IMG/VR virus record: IMGVR_UViG_2541047945_000002
DNA from: a virus
Lineage: Duplodnaviria; Heunggongvirae; Uroviricota; Caudoviricetes
Reading direction: 5' to 3' (one strand)
Length of the DNA stretch: 5,707 nucleotides
The notes under the pieces were generated by a model that had not been told where the DNA came from, ran no database searches, and saw nothing but the letters and a program-made list of their open reading frames with translations. Position numbers and translations under genes: made by a program. Shown piece after piece: positions 1 through 5,707 of the stretch (position 1 is the stretch's first letter; every line of letters starts with the position of its first letter).

Positions 1-2
1 AA

Positions 3-53
3 GCAGAAAAAGCTTATTATGCTTCCATCGGAAACGATGATCTGGCAGCCTGA
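3..53 (+). CDS. C-terminal fragment of IS3-family transposase OrfB (5'-partial, runs off window start)
   Basis: Frame 3 translation ...[16 protein letters not shown] stop (TGA 51-53), immediately upstream of the terminal inverted repeat. Assignment from recalled IS3-family OrfB C-termini; not searched. Confidence 0.5.
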
Positions 54-70
54 GTTCACAGATAAAATAC

Positions 71-95
71 TCTCCAGGAAACCCGGGGCGGTTCA
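71..95 (+). repeat. Right terminal inverted repeat (IRR) of the IS629-like element
   Basis: Reverse complement tgaaccgccccgggtttcctggaga matches 5478-5502 tgaaccgccccgggaatcctggaga at 22 of 25 positions. Confidence 0.75.
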
Positions 96-1929
96 GTCTG
101 AGTTCAATTCCTTCCTGTTGTCGCTTGTTGTAATCGTTTATTGATGAATTTAGGACGTCCTGAGCAATTTTTTCTGCTTGAAGTACGCCCAATTGCTGCT
201 TTAATCGTGCCAGCCTTTTATTTTGAGCTCCGCCATCTCCAATGCCACCTAACCCGAAAACTCCGGGTCGGGTATTTTTTTCTATTTCATCAATTTGACG
301 GAGAACATCTGAGATTTTTTGATCAAGGGAGGCCTCACGGCCAATGTCCAGCATGGAATCCCATGCCCATTTTGCGGAGTCTGCGACAGCTTTCCATGCA
401 GTCTCAAGATAACCAAGATTTTCTTTAATCTGGTTGGTGCGCTGGATCATTGAGGATGAGTATGCTTCTGTCGCAATGCGGGCGGCCTCCTGCTGGTTCC
501 CTTCATCCTGTAGCGCCTTAATCTGGTTATAAGTCGCAATTGTCAGAAAATGGTACTGATCATTAAGTTTTGATATGGCACTGACAGGATCCTTTGCAAT
601 TTCATTGAAGTCATTAACCAGTTGTTCGGTTGATATTCCTGTTACTTCGCTCGTTTTTACTATCGCTGTCGTCACTTGCTCCAGCGAACTGCTCGCTACC
701 TTTCCCGAACGCACAAGCTGGTTTAATACTGCCGCCGCAGCGCCAGTTGTCGAATCAGCCGCATTCCCGGCACGTTGAGCTATATCGGCCAATTGCCCGC
801 TGGTTGTCCCCAACTGATTTCCGGTAAGAATAAGAGATTTATTAAATTCGTCCTGCTCCTGAGAGCCTTTATAGTAAGCCAGTCCTAAGACCCCAACGGC
901 TGCTGCGGCCAGGGTAAAAGGATTAATTAATCCCAGCACATAAGAACCTACACCTTTGATCGCCGGGCCAATCCCACCGAACATATCTTTTAGCTGGCCG
1001 CCCTGCTGCATTAACACCATAAATGGCGACTGACCAGTGGACAACCCAACAACAATATCCGTCATTTGTGCAGGCAACATGCGCATAGCAAAAGCCGTTT
1101 GTTTTGCCGACATTCCGGTTTTGCTTAATTGTGATTGAGTAACCTCAAGCTCACTCCGCATAGCACGAAGTTTTCCAGAAAGCTCCTCATACATTTCAGG
1201 AGAAAGCATCCCCTTAGCTTTTGCTTCATTGAGCTGTTTCTGTTGTTCTACCAGACGATTAAAAGCAGTTCCGACAGGATCAAGTTGAGCAATCAGACGT
1301 TGCAAAGCAACAACCTGTTCATCATGCGCTTTTGCTGCTTCTCGCTCTGCCTGAGCCTCTCCGGTAAGCTCTCGCCGTGTTTCCTGTATTTTTCGGCTAT
1401 AATTCTCAAACTGAGAACCATTTATTTTCCCGGATGCAAACGCAGCATTAAGTTCATCATGCTGTTGTTCAAGATTTCTTAGCGCCGCAGCCAGAGGGTC
1501 GATCTTGTCCAGCATTCTTTGAAAGGCCTGAGCCTGCGCTTCCTGCTGGGCGGCAGCAAGTTTTCCGGCCTTCTCGGCTTCTCTCTGCGCTTGCGCAACC
1601 CCGCTCAATTCCTCTGTGGTTTCATTAAGTTTACGGACAAGAAATTCATATTCTTCTTTATCAATAAGCCCTTTATCGAAAAATTTCTTTAATTCAGAAT
1701 AGCGTCGACCGACAGTATCAATTGCGGCACCAACTGGATCAATAGCTGCTTTTAATTTTGCGAGCGCGTTCTTCTCATCTTCTGTTGCCTTAGTCACTTT
1801 CCCTGCGCTATTTGCAGCAGTTTCCCCAGCCTGCGTCATTTTGACTAATGAGGAGGTCAGATTGTCAGCATTATTTTTCGCTCCAGTGCTATCAATAATT
1901 ATTGCGAGACGCGAGGTTTGCTCTGCCAT
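96..1929 (-). CDS. Tail tape measure protein (lambda gpH-like), N-terminal ~611 codons; reading frame runs into the IS at 95/96, so the gene is interrupted
   Basis: ATG at 1929-1927 with AGGAG 9 nt upstream. Translation [20 protein letters not shown]... contains [40 protein letters not shown] and [29 protein letters not shown], which closely resemble conserved lambda gpH blocks (recalled, not searched). Hydrophobic [33 protein letters not shown] segment and coiled-coil-like repeats are typical of tape measure proteins. No stop before the IS junction. Missing from the ORF track because the frame is open to the window edge. Confidence 0.85.
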
Positions 1930-1944
1930 TTATTAAAACTCCTG

Positions 1945-1975
1945 ACAACAAAAAACCCACCGCGAAGTGGGTTTC
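1945..1975 (-). terminator. Putative rho-independent terminator/attenuator between the chaperone genes and the tape measure gene
   Basis: Minus-strand RNA reads GAAACCCAC-TTCGCG-GTGGGTTTTTTGTTGT: a GC-rich stem (CCCAC/GTGGG, extendable to 8 bp) followed by a T6 run, about 20 nt upstream of the tape measure SD. Confidence 0.4.
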
Positions 1976-2094
1976 AGGCGACATAATAGTAGATATAGCG
2001 ATTACGAGGCCACGCAATGCTTTTCTCCAGGAGCATCATCGATTTAATTAAAGACACCATCACATCTCTGTAACAGAGTGTACGTAATTAACAA

Positions 2095-2415
2095 CTACAC
2101 ACACTGCTCCTGAAAATACTGGTCATCCAGTGCAAAGATCACTGCTTCAAATTCATCGCGCTCAATCAATACCGGATGAGTGGCTAAATATTCATTTATC
2201 TCTGTCAGAGATAAAGGCAAAGGCACCCCAGCCATTCCAGCATAACGTCGGGCACGGGATATTACCGAATAGGCGTACAACAACTCCTTAAGCACCGGGT
2301 CTATTTCTGGTTCCGGTATCGGTGGCAACCTGAGTTTTTCTCGCTTCCATCTTGCCTTTTCCCCCCTTTCTCCCCCGAACTCCGATAACCACCGCTGGGC
2401 AGCTATGGCTTTTTT
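2095..2415 (-). CDS. gpT-like extension of the tail assembly chaperone, expressed as a G-T fusion by -1 frameshift; no convincing independent start
   Basis: The -1 frame relative to the gpG-like gene is open from the slippery site (2409-2415) to TAG at 2097-2095, encoding KKAIAAQRWLSEFGGERGEKARWKREKLRLPPIPEPEIDPVLKELLYAYS...QEQCV. The ORF track's 77-aa ORF starts at a TTG inside this frame. Position between chaperone and tape measure matches lambda G/T organisation. Confidence 0.7.
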   Translation of the reverse strand, partial: KKAIAAQRWLSEFGGERGEKARWKREKLRLPPIPEPEIDPVLKELLYAYSVISRARRYAGMAGVPLPLSLTEINEYLATHPVLIERDEFEAVIFALDDQYFQEQCV

Positions 2416-2864
2416 ATCGTATCCTGCTTCTGCTGCTCTTTACCCTGGGCGATGCTGGCTGCTTCTGCAAGGATCTGCCAGTACAACTCTGGATTCTGCT
2501 TAAGCAGCGCGATCCCTCGTTCTGCCGTATATTCCAGTGCAACCTCAACACCATTAACCAGTTCACCAACCCCTTTCCAGTCTTTCAGCAGATAACGAGC
2601 GGCATTATCAATGAGTAAATCATCAACAGAATCCACCTCGGAAACCTTTGAAATATCAAACTCCTTCGTTCCGACGTGCAAACTGGCATCCATTTTCTCA
2701 ATGTGGCGACGGATTAATGCATTACGGGAGCGATACTGATCGTTATCGCTGCTTGCCACCAACAGTTTTAACCCGTCTACAGGTTTTAAGTCCTTCATTG
2801 GCGTAAACCAGCGTTCTCCACCAATGATAATTTTCTGATTAAGAATAAACATCCATAACCTCAT
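2403..2864 (-). CDS. Tail assembly chaperone (lambda gpG-like); start may be the second ATG at 2852
   Basis: 153-codon ORF directly between major tail and tape measure genes, acidic C-terminal half, ends in the slippery site. GAGG lies 6 nt upstream of the second ATG (MFILNQ...), so the true start may be 2852. Confidence 0.7.
   Translation of the reverse strand: MRLWMFILNQKIIIGGERWFTPMKDLKPVDGLKLLVASSDNDQYRSRNALIRRHIEKMDASLHVGTKEFDISKVSEVDSVDDLLIDNAARYLLKDWKGVGELVNGVEVALEYTAERGIALLKQNPELYWQILAEAASIAQGKEQQKQDTIKKP
2409..2415 (-). other. Programmed -1 ribosomal frameshift slippery heptamer A AAA AAG
   Basis: Minus-strand ...ACG ATA AAA AAG CCA TAG: an X XXY YYZ heptamer in the last codons of the gpG-like frame, with the -1 frame open for about 100 further codons. 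Confidence 0.65.
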
Positions 2865-2912
2865 TCAATGCGTCCCCCTGTAGGGCAGTACCACAGGAGG
2901 AATAACGGAAAA

Positions 2913-3875
2913 TCAACTAATCGCCTCAGCACTGGCTTTTGCGATCACGGCAGCCGGGGAATTTTTTTTTCTGGTTATCGTAGGTGCTTCATCTGCTGCG
3001 GTAATGCTCAATTGAACCTGGATAATGTCGCTATTACCCCCATCAGGCCATTCACCTGACACCTGAACCTTCGGGAAACTGAAAGTGTATGCCCCCTCTC
3101 CATTCGAAAGCGTGAAGCTGAACGGAACTGTTTCTCCAGTCAGTGTTTTACTCCAGATTTCCCACGCGGCTTTAGACCATGAAAGCGTCACCGTACCGGA
3201 CGGTGTAAAAGTAGTCGGAATATTTGCTCCTGCATAAGGCGAGCCAGTCCCGATACAACGCTGTGTCTGGAGTTTGTTATCGAACTGAATATCAAAACTG
3301 TCGATACAAAAACCGTTACCTCCGGCAACACCATTCAGGCTTACTGCTGAAACCTCCTTAAACGAATAACGTAGCTTTCCTGCACTATCCACAGGTTCGC
3401 CTTTGATAAAATTCGTATCATCGGCCTTTGATTCCCAGTCCAGTCCGGCAAAGGTTACGGTCGCTGTAATATCGCCGTCGTTAGGGATCTGCATTTTCCA
3501 TGAGCCAACCTGCGCTCCTCTGACGACAGAGGCAATTCCGACATCGGACGCATAGGTCGCCAGAGAAAATGTTATTCGCTCATTCCCCATTGTCAGAGAA
3601 TCGCCTGACCATTCCGCGCCGAAACAGGATGCAAGAAAATCATCATGTTGACCCCAGCGAAATTTGGTACCAACATCACCGCCGACATCCACAGTGCCAG
3701 GCGTCGCCCCCTGAGCCATCCGGGAGCCACCAATCTCATTATTTTCGCCTTTATTCTGGGTGGGTTTTACTCCCCAGCTTGTGCGTTTTAATAAACTCCA
3801 GTCACCACTTGCTGGCGTAGTGCCTGCAACCGTCTCCCGGATAAATGCCGAGATAACCTTTGCACCTGAACTCAC
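2913..3875 (-). CDS. Major tail tube protein (320 codons, GTG start)
   Basis: Largest ORF, sited between tail terminator-like and chaperone genes. Start is GTG (plus 3873-3875 cac) with AGGAGG 6 nt upstream. Gly/Thr/Ser-rich, beta-rich composition typical of tail tube proteins. Assignment by synteny and composition. Confidence 0.65.
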   Translation of the reverse strand: MSSGAKVISAFIRETVAGTTPASGDWSLLKRTSWGVKPTQNKGENNEIGGSRMAQGATPGTVDVGGDVGTKFRWGQHDDFLASCFGAEWSGDSLTMGNERITFSLATYASDVGIASVVRGAQVGSWKMQIPNDGDITATVTFAGLDWESKADDTNFIKGEPVDSAGKLRYSFKEVSAVSLNGVAGGNGFCIDSFDIQFDNKLQTQRCIGTGSPYAGANIPTTFTPSGTVTLSWSKAAWEIWSKTLTGETVPFSFTLSNGEGAYTFSFPKVQVSGEWPDGGNSDIIQVQLSITAADEAPTITRKKNSPAAVIAKASAEAIS

Positions 3876-3901
3876 AGGAGCCTCCTATGTCATTAATTGC
3901 G

Positions 3902-4294
3902 CTAGAGCGCGCGATATGGAATTTGAAGATTAAGCTGGAACCAGCCATTCTTTTCGCCAACGGCTATTGAGGAAACAGCCTGGTAACTGAGACGATCGTC
4001 ATCCTGAAACTCAAACAGTTCCCGCAATTTATCGGCTGTCTCAGTAATGAGTTTTGAACCAGAACCTGCGGGGACAAATAACTGAATAATGATTATCCCC
4101 GTGCGATAAACAACCGGCCCCGCGCCAATTTCATTAACTCCAGCCTGCCCGGGAATATTACTTAACCGCGCCCAGATTAACTTACCGGAAGGATCGAACG
4201 TTGGCCCGTTCGGATACAATACGTCTTTTCCATCAATAATCGTCTGTGCCGTCATTCTGGAAATAACCGTATTTCTGATTTCAGTAAACTTCAT
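3902..4294 (-). CDS. Tail terminator protein (lambda gpU-like)
   Basis: 130 codons immediately upstream of the major tail gene. N-terminus MKFTEIRNTVISRM resembles the gpU N-terminus as recalled (MKHTELRAAV...). ATGA start/stop overlap with the upstream gene. Confidence 0.55.
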   Translation of the reverse strand: MKFTEIRNTVISRMTAQTIIDGKDVLYPNGPTFDPSGKLIWARLSNIPGQAGVNEIGAGPVVYRTGIIIIQLFVPAGSGSKLITETADKLRELFEFQDDDRLSYQAVSSIAVGEKNGWFQLNLQIPYRAL

Positions 4295-4671
4295 TTGTAA
4301 GCCTGTAAAACACCATGAAAAGCGTTGGCATACACGCCAGTTGGCGCTTGTTGTGAATGACCGTTTTCAAGAGCCTCTGCATAAGGAAGGTTATTCTGGA
4401 TATAAATAACCCCGTAATTTGCAGCTTTCGAAATAACCCCGATCCCACGCTGAACAGCAATCGTACCGTTCGGATCCACGTTATCAGATATACCAAAATC
4501 GGGATGCTGTAACGACACCAGGTTGTTATTTCTGAAACGTCCGGTATCAACCGGAGCAGCAATATCAATAGCAGTAAGAATCTGCATAGCGATGTAGCGA
4601 ATCTTCAGCCCTACATCTTCCTCAATCATCCCGGCAAATATTGACGGTTCTATATCCCATGCCTTTGCCAT
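4291..4671 (-). CDS. Tail completion / head-tail joining protein (HK97 gp10-like)
   Basis: 126 codons; position and size fit the HK97 gp10 / lambda gpZ slot. TAAATG junction with the upstream gene and ATGA overlap with the downstream gene indicate translational coupling. Confidence 0.5.
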   Translation of the reverse strand: MAKAWDIEPSIFAGMIEEDVGLKIRYIAMQILTAIDIAAPVDTGRFRNNNLVSLQHPDFGISDNVDPNGTIAVQRGIGVISKAANYGVIYIQNNLPYAEALENGHSQQAPTGVYANAFHGVLQAYK

Positions 4672-5055
4672 TTACGCTCTCCTTAACTGGATAGAGTAAA
4701 CTGATGCGGAAGGATCTACACTTGCTGTAATTACCTCGTATCGTTGTAACTGCCTTGATACAGGATCATAAATCTCAATAATATGGTCGACAGCTGGTTT
4801 ATCCGTAACCTCGCATACCAGAGCGGTTAATTTAAGGTCACCATGCAAAATATTAATCCCATCAATTCTGCCCAGCTTATAACGTGTCAACACGCCTCGC
4901 CCGGTATAGATTGCGGTGGATTCGCCGCCAGTTTCCGTCACAGGATCCCAGTGCCGGTGCGTAACGTAAGAACCAGAAAAATCACTCACGGCGTCCGCTA
5001 AATCCTCATCAAAAGCAGCGGCAACCTCTGACTGAATCTCTTCACGAAGCCCCAT
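4672..5055 (-). CDS. Head-tail adaptor / head closure protein (putative)
   Basis: 127 codons; start overlaps the upstream stop (TAATG). Synteny with HK97-like head-tail joining genes; no sequence motif confidently recognised. Confidence 0.45.
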   Translation of the reverse strand: MGLREEIQSEVAAAFDEDLADAVSDFSGSYVTHRHWDPVTETGGESTAIYTGRGVLTRYKLGRIDGINILHGDLKLTALVCEVTDKPAVDHIIEIYDPVSRQLQRYEVITASVDPSASVYSIQLRRA

Positions 5056-5450
5056 TATCCCCCCCTCACAACCCTGACTTGTGAGCGACTAAGTCCGTAC
5101 GGTTTCAGCAGTGCTATCGCAAGCTGTAAATCGGGTTCAAGCAATGCAGTGCTGTTTGCTGGCAACTCAGAAAATGATTTCGATACACTGACCCCGTCAG
5201 CCGACACGGCTTTACTGATAACAACGCCAGAATCATTTTTCTGCTGAAACAACTTACCGAATGAGGCAATTCTGGCTGCATATGCTCCCGCAAGTTTTAC
5301 CTCTTCCGGAATACGGGATGGGTTAATTTTCAGGTTGAAGCCATTAAGCCAGGCATTAGCCATTAAAACAGCTTTATTTTTAGCGTTCTCACTCGTCCAG
5401 GCGTTCCCAAACGCATTATCAACGTCATCACAGGTCACGTAAGTGATCAT
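5055..5450 (-). CDS. Head-tail connector protein (gp6-like, putative)
   Basis: 131 codons; ATG at 5450-5448 with AGGAG 8 nt upstream. First gene of the head-tail joining block; N-terminal flavour of gp6-like connector proteins. Assignment mainly by position. Confidence 0.45.
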   Translation of the reverse strand: MITYVTCDDVDNAFGNAWTSENAKNKAVLMANAWLNGFNLKINPSRIPEEVKLAGAYAARIASFGKLFQQKNDSGVVISKAVSADGVSVSKSFSELPANSTALLEPDLQLAIALLKPYGLSRSQVRVVRGG

Positions 5451-5477
5451 GTGTTACTCCTGAGTTTTCCAGCCCAT

Positions 5478-5502
5478 TGAACCGCCCCGGGAATCCTGGA
5501 GA
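5478..5502 (+). repeat. Left terminal inverted repeat (IRL) of the IS629-like element
   Basis: 25-nt sequence matching the reverse complement of 71-95 at 22/25 positions. Confidence 0.8.
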
Positions 5503-5531
5503 CTAAACTTCCTGAGAAAGAGGTAAACAGG

Positions 5532-5707
5532 ATGACTAAAAATACTCGTTTTTCCCCTGAAGTCCGTCAACGGGCAGTCCGTATGGTTCTGGAAAGTCAG
5601 GGCGAATATGACTCACAATGGGCGACAATTTGTTCCATTGCTCCAAAGATTGGCTGTACGCCGGAGACTCTGCGTGTCTGGGTTCGCCAGCATGAGCGGG
5701 ATACCGG
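5532..5707 (+). CDS. IS629-like transposase OrfA, N-terminal part (3'-partial)
   Basis: ATG at 5532; 58 codons with the helix-turn-helix-containing N-terminus characteristic of IS3-family OrfA; open to the window edge. Confidence 0.85.

What the first reader, a model, noticed from the sequence alone, without database searches (positions are those of the whole stretch)
1930..2094. Unusually long 165-bp spacer with a terminator-like hairpin between the chaperone genes and the tape measure gene
In lambda the T and H genes are nearly contiguous. Here 165 nt of non-coding sequence separates them and contains GAAACCCAC-TTCGCG-GTGGG followed by a T6 run (minus strand, about 1975-1945), just upstream of the tape measure SD. 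A partial terminator would lower tape measure expression relative to the major tail protein, which is stoichiometrically sensible. A decayed moron or small RNA is an alternative.
Basis: seen in the sequence. Interest (0 to 1): 0.4.

Follow-up and report, generated by a model that had tools for sequence, protein, structure and literature searches.

The report
Moron-slot remnant with terminator before tape-measure gene
The 165-base gap is real and ends in a good transcription terminator, but it is one version of a known phage hotspot for extra "moron" genes, here nearly empty, so the finding is largely ordinary.

Summary
Observation confirmed. On the minus strand the chaperone GT frame stops at 2097-2095 and the tape measure ATG is at 1929. 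The 165 nt between them hold a 10-pair hairpin (1975-1952, -12.3 kcal/mol) followed by a T-run, 5 nt before the AGGAG ribosome-binding site.

The window is the tail module of a Rac-type lambdoid prophage. The spacer is 100% identical in E. coli K-12 (ydaY-ynaA/tmpR) and occurs in 1046 of 5426 complete E. coli genomes.

In relatives with homologous chaperone and tape measure genes, the same junction is 38-39 nt, 163-165 nt, or 485-2532 nt. The long versions carry cargo genes: an Ail/Lom outer membrane protein, a KilA-N protein, a membrane zinc-ribbon protein and others. This is the position of HK97 gene 15, the first element ever called a moron, which is also followed by a terminator just before the tape measure ATG.

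Nearly every version, including the empty one, has a hairpin plus T-run ending 21-28 nt before the ATG, with unrelated stems.

Best reading: a cargo-poor moron-slot allele whose terminator insulates the distal tail genes in the lysogen and is read through by Q-modified polymerase in lytic growth. The attenuator idea is weakly supported.

The 119 nt before the hairpin have no homologue yet are oddly invariant. That part is unexplained.

The parts
2403..2864 (-). Tail assembly chaperone G (153 codons as read from the first ATG)
   Evidence: PHROG 313 'tail assembly chaperone', E 4e-46. Translation.
2409..2415 (-). Slippery heptamer A_AAA_AAG for the -1 frameshift that makes the GT fusion
   Evidence: Read. 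The -1 frame is open from here to 2095. Inference from sequence, not tested experimentally.
2095..2409 (-). T part of the GT frameshift product, ending at TAG 2097-2095
   Evidence: translation. PHROG 1189 E 1.6e-36 and Pfam Phage_TAC_18.
1930..2094 (-). The 165-nt GT-to-tape-measure spacer: the Rac-type allele of a hypervariable moron slot
   Evidence: Present in 1046 of 5426 E. coli genomes. GC 0.40 against 0.47 for the window.
1976..2094 (-). Orphan 119-nt AT-rich segment before the hairpin; no homologue, no family match, unusually invariant
   Evidence: No Rfam hit and no tRNA. No DNA or translated match outside this context. No similarity to other slot alleles. At least 99% identical in 1044 of 1046 genomes. 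Variable columns 5/119 against 36/243 at flanking third codon positions, Fisher p = 0.002.
1974..2060 (-). 28-codon ORF (MVSLIKSMMLLEKSIAWPRNRYIYYYVA) whose TGA overlaps the 5' arm of the hairpin; probably not a gene
   Evidence: Read. Only a weak GAGA upstream as SD. ATG->ATA in 7 of 41 haplotypes, plus one TGG->TGA nonsense variant. Called as a gene in only 2 public records. No PHROG hit.
1952..1975 (-). Intrinsic-terminator hairpin, 10 pairs, loop UCGC
   Evidence: -12.3 kcal/mol, z -4.0. In 23 of 41 haplotypes a 2-nt loop deletion leaves C(UUCG)G with the stem intact.
1945..1955 (-). U-rich tail: T6 at 1955-1950 (the first four also pair in the stem), then GTTGT
   Evidence: T-run length varies from 5 to 8 among haplotypes.
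1939..1943 (-). Shine-Dalgarno AGGAG of the tape measure gene, 9 nt before the ATG
96..1929 (-). Tape measure gene, 5' part; cut at about position 95/96 by IS629-like sequence
   Evidence: Pfam TMP_2 E 4e-82. Homology to the intact prophage stops at window 96.

Best explanation
The spacer is the Rac-type version of a moron insertion slot between the tail assembly chaperone GT gene and the tape measure gene. In this family of lambdoid tails, everything between the GT stop codon and the T-run in front of the tape measure ribosome-binding site is replaceable.

The known states of the slot are:
- almost empty (38-39 nt);
- filled with one to several cargo genes (485-2532 nt);
- as here, filled with 119 nt of orphan AT-rich DNA plus an intrinsic terminator.

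The Rac allele is most simply a cargo-poor or decayed moron that has kept its terminator.

Inferred mechanism, not shown: in a lysogen the hairpin and U-run stop ordinary RNA polymerase that enters from the slot or from upstream. The tape measure and the roughly 13 kb of distal tail genes then stay silent. After induction, polymerase modified by the phage Q-type antiterminator reads through this terminator, as it must read through the other terminators in the late region. The terminator therefore does little to set tape measure dosage.
For: Slot variability. Across 80 + 8 + 25 related loci, the distance from GT stop to tape measure ATG takes at least 15 states:
- 38-39 nt;
- 163-165 nt;
- 485, 500, 535, 570, 669, 746-797, 1159, 1301, 1783, 2311 and 2532 nt.

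Cargo genes:
- an Ail/Lom outer membrane protein (Pfam Ail_Lom E 4e-27; PHROG 108);
- a KilA-N protein;
- a DUF2545 plus zinc-ribbon membrane protein;
- several proteins of unknown function.
PGAP annotates the Ail/Lom gene directly upstream of the tape measure gene in 19 E. coli genomes.

Known precedent:
- HK97 gene 15 lies between the chaperone and tape measure genes and was the first element called a moron (PMC3594210).
- Its GenBank record annotates a putative terminator at 8398-8422, 12 nt before the tape measure ATG.
- The HK97 hairpin folds at -12.4 kcal/mol, against -12.3 here.
- HK022 has 19 nt at this junction, and in lambda the two genes overlap by 8 nt.

Terminator position:
- 26 of 29 distinct spacers have a terminator-like site ending 21-28 nt before the ATG, against a 3% background.
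- The new alleles follow the same pattern.
- At least seven unrelated stem sequences occur. The T-run and SD leader downstream are shared, so the exchange boundary lies at the T-run.

Moron-like composition: the spacer is 0.40 GC against 0.47, in the lowest 6% of 119-nt windows.

Late-operon context, from the intact relative L093:
- A DUF1133 protein sits directly upstream of the holin and also scores above the cut-off for Pfam Phage_antitermQ (27.1 against 26 bits).
- About eight sense-strand intergenic terminator-like hairpins occur in the late region: after that gene, before the holin, after trkG, after the minor head gene, after the major capsid gene, in this slot, after J and after lom.
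Against: - No promoter-like site lies on the sense strand in or just upstream of the spacer, and no convincing cargo gene is present. The moron label therefore rests on position, composition and the terminator.
- The cargo-free 38-39 nt allele also carries a hairpin and T-run. That fits a terminator selected for its own sake at least as well as a relic left by cargo.
- The 119-nt orphan segment is not decaying. It varies less than flanking third codon positions (5/119 against 36/243, p = 0.002) and is at least 99% identical in 99.8% of E. coli carriers, against 91% and 77% for equal-length flanking coding segments.
- No transcript data for this site were found, so neither termination nor read-through has been shown.
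- The Q-like protein has no sequence match to a solved Q structure. Its role is inferred from its position and a borderline Pfam hit.
Confidence: 0.6

Rival explanations
1. Attenuator. The hairpin is a leaky terminator that works during lytic growth. It lowers transcription of the tape measure and distal tail genes relative to the tube and chaperone genes, and so sets the stoichiometry.
For: The hairpin and U-run are well formed. A terminator sits at a fixed 21-28 nt from the ATG in nearly all alleles, including the cargo-free one. This suggests that termination in front of this gene is itself selected. A similar hairpin follows the major capsid gene in the intact relative.
Against: - Lambdoid late operons are transcribed by Q-modified, terminator-resistant polymerase (established knowledge; PMC9388147 abstract).
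- A Q-type candidate is present in the intact relative, and about eight such hairpins occur in its late region.
- The hairpin follows GT, which is itself needed in small amounts, not the tube gene.
- HK022 and lambda make tails with no such element.
- The stems are unrelated between alleles, as expected if each cargo brought its own terminator.
Confidence: 0.15
2. Functional mini-moron. The 119-nt segment plus the terminator encodes something used by the lysogen or the phage. Candidates are a small RNA, possibly derived from the 3' UTR of the GT message, or the 28-residue peptide, by analogy with the 62-residue HK97 gp15 exclusion protein.
For: - The segment is less variable than neighbouring synonymous-type sites.
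- It is almost invariant across 1046 E. coli genomes (compared).
- The ORF ends at the terminator, as HK97 gene 15 does.
- The spacer folds better than shuffles (z -2.3, 1 of 200).
Against: - No sense-strand promoter-like site and only a weak SD.
- Start-codon loss in 7 of 41 haplotypes and one nonsense variant.
- No Rfam family and no homologue anywhere else.
- Nothing annotated there in the curated K-12 record.
- Absent from the held Term-seq, RIL-seq-based and CLASH supplements.
- The low variability could also come from recent spread by recombination among only about three haplotype groups.
Confidence: 0.12
3. RNA stability element. The hairpin mainly acts after cleavage of the long late transcript, as a 3' protective stem-loop for the upstream tube-G-GT message or as part of the tape measure 5' leader. 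It would affect mRNA half-life or translation rather than transcription.
For: Hairpins also follow the capsid and J genes in the intact relative. In some predicted folds the SD pairs with CCUG just 5' of the hairpin, or with CUCCUG 85 nt upstream.
Against: The predicted SD pairing changes partner between haplotypes and is lost in the CTGGAG variant, with no compensating change. A U-run directly after the stem marks a terminator and is not needed for a stabiliser.
Confidence: 0.08

Closest known systems
HK97 gene 15 moron (Juhala/Hendrix; Cumby et al.; reviewed in PMC3594210)
   Same: [quoted passage not shown] Same layout: extra DNA, a short ORF ending just before a hairpin with a T-run, then 12-25 nt holding the SD and the tape measure ATG. 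Hairpin energy is alike (-12.4 against -12.3 kcal/mol). Related phages lack the insert.
   Different: HK97 carries a 62-codon gene for an inner membrane superinfection exclusion protein. Here there is only a 28-codon ORF with a weak SD, start-loss and nonsense variants and no homologue. There is no sequence similarity to HK97. The tail module is a different lineage (Rac type).
Lambda lom / bor type morons (Ail/Lom outer membrane proteins expressed from prophages)
   Same: In 19 E. coli genomes and several viral contigs, this very slot holds an Ail/Lom gene followed by a strong terminator (GGCCCCGC...GCGGGGCU plus a T-run) in place of the 119-nt segment.
   Different: The window's allele has no such gene and shows no detectable similarity to the flanks of the Lom allele.
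Intrinsic terminators inside Q-antiterminated lambdoid late operons (for example tR' and moron terminators)
   Same: A GC stem plus U-run on the sense strand between late genes. An intact relative has a Q-type candidate and several such sites.
   Different: Read-through by Q-modified polymerase is assumed here from knowledge of lambdoid phages and was not measured.

Membership tests
Moron (extra transcription unit in a phage late operon) | Extra DNA between two genes that are adjacent in related phages | tested here: met
   Relatives with homologous G/GT and tape measure genes have 38-39 nt at this junction. HK022 has 19 nt and lambda an 8-nt overlap.
Moron (extra transcription unit in a phage late operon) | Carries a protein-coding gene | tested here: inconclusive
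   Only a 28-codon ORF (2060-1974). It has a weak SD, ATG->ATA in 7 of 41 haplotypes, one nonsense variant, no family hit and no homologue.
Moron (extra transcription unit in a phage late operon) | Own promoter | tested here: inconclusive
   No sense-strand promoter-like site in the spacer. The same scan also finds none upstream of HK97 gene 15 or of the Lom cargo, so the test has little power.
Moron (extra transcription unit in a phage late operon) | Own terminator at the downstream end | tested here: met
   Hairpin 1975-1952 plus T-run.
Moron (extra transcription unit in a phage late operon) | Base composition different from the neighbouring genes | tested here: met
   GC 0.395-0.40 against 0.47, the lowest 6% of 119-nt windows. 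The difference is modest.
Moron (extra transcription unit in a phage late operon) | Expressed from the repressed prophage | not testable with these tools
   No transcript data found for K-12 coordinates 1426289-1426453 in the supplements held.
Intrinsic (Rho-independent) terminator | GC-containing stem-loop directly followed by a U-run on the transcribed strand | tested here: met
   10 pairs (4 G-C), loop of 4, -12.3 kcal/mol, then U6 and GUUGU.
Intrinsic (Rho-independent) terminator | Transcripts actually end there | not testable with these tools
   Needs 3'-end mapping or in vitro transcription.
Small regulatory RNA gene | Match to a described RNA family, or own promoter plus terminator giving a discrete transcript | tested here: not met
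   No Rfam match in the spacer even at E <= 1. No promoter-like site. No RNA gene annotated in K-12 at this place.

The most novel reading that the evidence does not exclude
The 119-nt orphan segment together with its terminator is a functional unit kept by selection in Rac-type prophages. It would be either a small RNA released from the end of the chaperone message or a 28-residue peptide, acting for the lysogen as HK97 gp15 does (for example in superinfection exclusion). This would explain why it is almost invariant in more than a thousand E. coli genomes while the coding DNA on both sides varies more.
Probability: 0.12. Interest if true: 0.5.

Novelty: new member of a known kind. Interest (0 to 1): 0.2.

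Why it matters
The result explains an odd-looking gap in a very common E. coli prophage, present in about a fifth of complete genomes including K-12, without needing a new mechanism.

Two modest points go beyond the textbook picture:
- In this tail lineage the chaperone/tape-measure junction is a busy exchange point, with at least 15 alleles. The exchange boundary sits at the terminator's T-run.
- A terminator is kept at a fixed distance in front of the tape measure gene whatever the cargo, even with none.

These make the slot a convenient natural system for asking whether moron terminators are insulators for the lysogen or dosage devices for the phage. The unusually invariant 119-nt segment is a cheap target for a deletion or Northern experiment in K-12 relatives.

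Tried and rejected
- **Rfam and tRNA.** An Rfam scan of the whole window at E <= 1 gave only two weak chance hits elsewhere and nothing in the spacer. ARAGORN found no tRNA or tmRNA.
- **Remnant of a larger gene or of another slot allele.**
  - blastn of the spacer against 50,697 phage records found only the same context.
  - tblastn of the 37-codon open frame found only itself.
  - Local alignment of the pre-hairpin 122 nt against 17 other slot alleles gave z <= 1.2. This overturned a resemblance to the Lom promoter region that I thought I saw by eye.
  - The large protein database could not be searched because the peptide is below the 40-aa minimum.
- **SD-sequestering long-range helix.** The predicted partner of the SD differs between haplotypes, and the CAGGAG->CTGGAG variant is not compensated. 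Not pursued.
- **K-12 transcript evidence.** I searched for 3' ends or sRNA records at 14263xx-14264xx, ydaY, ynaA and tmpR in the supplements of PMC7815308, PMC12207403, PMC9023263, PMC8175672 and PMC7213987.
  - Nothing relevant turned up. One antisense 3' end inside ynaA lies at 1426769, outside the spacer.
  - Rac late genes are probably silent in K-12, and some files are truncated, so absence says little.
- **Q protein identity.** The DUF1133 protein of the intact relative has no phmmer match in the PDB.
- **Promoters in the cargo alleles and in HK97.** The consensus scan found none, so the missing promoter here cannot be taken as strong evidence.
- **Genome collection scan.** The GTDB genome scan gave only 8 loci. 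It added Citrobacter alleles but no divergent copy of the Rac spacer.

Full report
**What is in the window**

All genes lie on the minus strand and form the head-tail joining and tail module of a siphovirus-type prophage:
- head-tail adaptor, 5450-5055;
- head closure protein, 5055-4672;
- tail completion protein, 4671-4291;
- tail terminator, 4294-3902;
- tail tube protein, 3875-2913;
- tail assembly chaperone G, 2864-2403;
- the -1 frame T extension, ending at TAG 2097-2095;
- the tape measure gene, from ATG 1929.

G ends with the slippery heptamer A_AAA_AAG at 2415-2409. The -1 frame stays open for 104 more codons and matches chaperone families. The G/GT pair is therefore intact.

The DNA is 99-100% identical to Rac-type prophages of E. 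coli, Shigella and one Salmonella phage record. In E. coli K-12 the spacer is 100% identical and lies between ydaY and ynaA (tmpR) of cryptic prophage Rac, at about 1426289-1426453. Nothing is annotated there.

**The observation**

The gap is exactly 1930-2094 (165 nt). A TAA directly in frame upstream of the tape measure ATG rules out an earlier start. It is by far the largest intergenic gap in the window.

The hairpin GAAACCCACU-UCGC-GGUGGGUUUU (1975-1952) is followed by UUGUUGU and then AGGAG (1943-1939).
- It is the best terminator-like site in the window.
- It folds at -12.3 kcal/mol, z -4.0.
- It is one-directional.
- In 23 of 41 haplotypes a 2-nt deletion in the loop gives a C(UUCG)G tetraloop and leaves the stem intact.

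**Comparison with relatives**

I collected loci that encode a G homologue and located the GT stop and the tape measure start in each. The distance between them is hypervariable.

| Length (nt) | Content |
|---|---|
| 38-39 | no cargo |
| 163-165 | Rac type, near-identical copies |
| 485 | 120-codon ORF |
| 500 | 103-codon ORF |
| 535 | 136-codon ORF |
| 570 | DUF2545 plus zinc-ribbon membrane protein |
| 669 | 188-codon ORF on the opposite strand |
| 746-796 | Ail/Lom outer membrane protein |
| 797 | 132-residue membrane protein |
| 1159, 1301 | several ORFs |
| 1783 | KilA-N protein plus the DUF2545 protein |
| 2311, 2532 | several ORFs (Citrobacter prophages) |

In complete E. coli genomes the Rac allele is found in 1046 and the Lom allele in 19. 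In the latter, PGAP annotates an Ail/Lom gene directly upstream of the tape measure gene.

**The known precedent**

The review PMC3594210 states that the word moron was first used for the element containing HK97 gene 15. [quoted passage not shown]

The HK97 record shows:
- GT ending at 8145;
- gene 15 at 8203-8391;
- a putative terminator at 8398-8422 (GACCCGCUAUCAAGCGGGUU plus U8);
- the tape measure ATG at 8435.

HK022 has 19 nt and no hairpin at this junction. In lambda, T and H overlap by 8 nt.

The window's spacer has the same layout as the HK97 moron, with a hairpin of the same strength. It lacks a convincing gene.

**The terminator is a constant of the slot**

In 26 of 29 distinct spacers a terminator-like site ends 21-28 nt before the tape measure ATG. 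The background chance for a 45-nt window in the same loci is about 3%. The additional alleles show the same pattern.

At least seven unrelated stems occur. The T-run and the SD leader after it are shared between alleles...UUUUUAUGCCCGGAGAUCGCA-AUG in the Citrobacter-type lineage, and UGUC(A/C)GGAG... in the E. coli lineage. The boundary of the exchangeable DNA is therefore the T-run.

The cargo-free 38-39 nt allele also has a hairpin and T-run. This is the best point in favour of a terminator selected for its own sake.

**Why I favour insulation over attenuation**

The intact relative L093 has the usual lambdoid order. A DUF1133 protein, which also passes the Pfam cut-off for Phage_antitermQ, sits directly upstream of the holin, endolysin and spanin genes. 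These are followed by trkG (itself an inserted gene), terminase, head genes, this tail module, J, lom and the fibre genes.

Its late region carries about eight sense-strand intergenic terminator-like hairpins, including ones after trkG, after the capsid gene, after J and after lom. A single transcript can cross all of these only if polymerase is made terminator-resistant, as Q proteins do (established knowledge; abstracts).

The slot terminator is then one of several. It would matter mostly when polymerase is not modified, that is, in the lysogen.

These last steps are inferred. I found no transcript data for this site.

**The 119 nt before the hairpin**

The segment has no Rfam match and no tRNA. 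It has no sense-strand promoter-like site. It has no homologue in phage records at the DNA or translated level. It shows no similarity to any other slot allele.

It contains a 28-codon ORF (2060-1974) whose stop overlaps the hairpin.
- The SD is weak.
- The ATG is ATA in 7 of 41 haplotypes, although in-frame GTG codons flank it.
- One haplotype has a nonsense change.
- Only two public records call it a gene.

I do not think it is a gene, but I cannot exclude it.

What remains unexplained is how little the segment varies:
- 5 variable columns in 119, against 36 of 243 flanking third codon positions (p = 0.002), 63 of 729 flanking positions overall (p = 0.10), and 7 of 46 in the hairpin-to-ATG part;
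- at least 99% identity in 99.8% of E. coli copies, against 91% for the last 119 nt of GT and 77% for the first 119 nt of the tape measure gene.

The copies fall into only about three haplotype groups and recombination is rife. This is suggestive of constraint, not proof of it.

**Verdict**

The feature is a new, cargo-poor member of a well-known kind, so interest is low. Two small open questions remain: why a terminator is always kept in front of this tape measure gene, and why the orphan 119 nt are so invariant.

Noticed in passing
window 1-95 and 5478-5707: Both ends of the window match the two opposite ends of IS629 (IS3 family). Homology to intact Rac-type prophages covers only 96-5477. 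The tape measure gene is therefore cut after about 611 codons, and the small head-side gene upstream of the adaptor is cut too. The window is a prophage fragment bracketed by IS629 copies.
   Followed up: partly
window 2409-2415 (minus strand): The G/GT frameshift site is A_AAA_AAG, the dnaX-type heptamer, two codons before the G stop. Public annotations of this region mostly miss the fusion and call the T part a separate 'hypothetical protein'.
   Followed up: partly
L074/L083/L078, 38-39 nt slot (for example L083:3789-3827): The cargo-free allele can form two mutually exclusive hairpins. One is GCCCGG/CCGGGU, the terminator form followed by the U-run. The other is CCGGGUAU/AUGCCCGG, which uses the U-run as its loop and abuts the SD. 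RNAfold prefers the second (-19.5 kcal/mol). It looks like a possible switch.
   Followed up: no
L093 (E. coli FDAARGOS_497 prophage) 3400-34100: The late region of the intact relative has about eight sense-strand intergenic terminator-like hairpins. One comes right after the major capsid gene (16489-16502) and one after the minor head protein gene (14391-14410). trkG sits as an inserted gene between the lysis and terminase genes with its own hairpin (7535-7558).
   Followed up: partly
L176 (E. coli KMi012, NZ_CP147125.1) about 1789-2516: An IS1A element lies directly upstream of the tape measure gene. Homology to the window starts at window 1944, just after the terminator's T-run, so the IS-associated rearrangement boundary coincides with the slot boundary.
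   Followed up: no
L064:3001-3459: The G homologue in this viral contig has an internal stop codon, so it is probably a pseudogene in a decaying prophage.
   Followed up: no
window 2088-2117 (plus strand): A weak antisense promoter-like site (TTAACA-18-GAAAAT) straddles the GT stop and points back into the chaperone gene. The same site is present in the intact relative. It scores 9 of 12, and promoter-like sites are no more frequent than in shuffles.
   Followed up: no
L087/L076 slot start (for example L087:4292-4320): In the 1783-nt allele a second terminator-like hairpin (CCCGCCGGGGCUUUUUU) follows the GT stop directly, so this slot is bracketed by terminators on both sides of the cargo.
   Followed up: no
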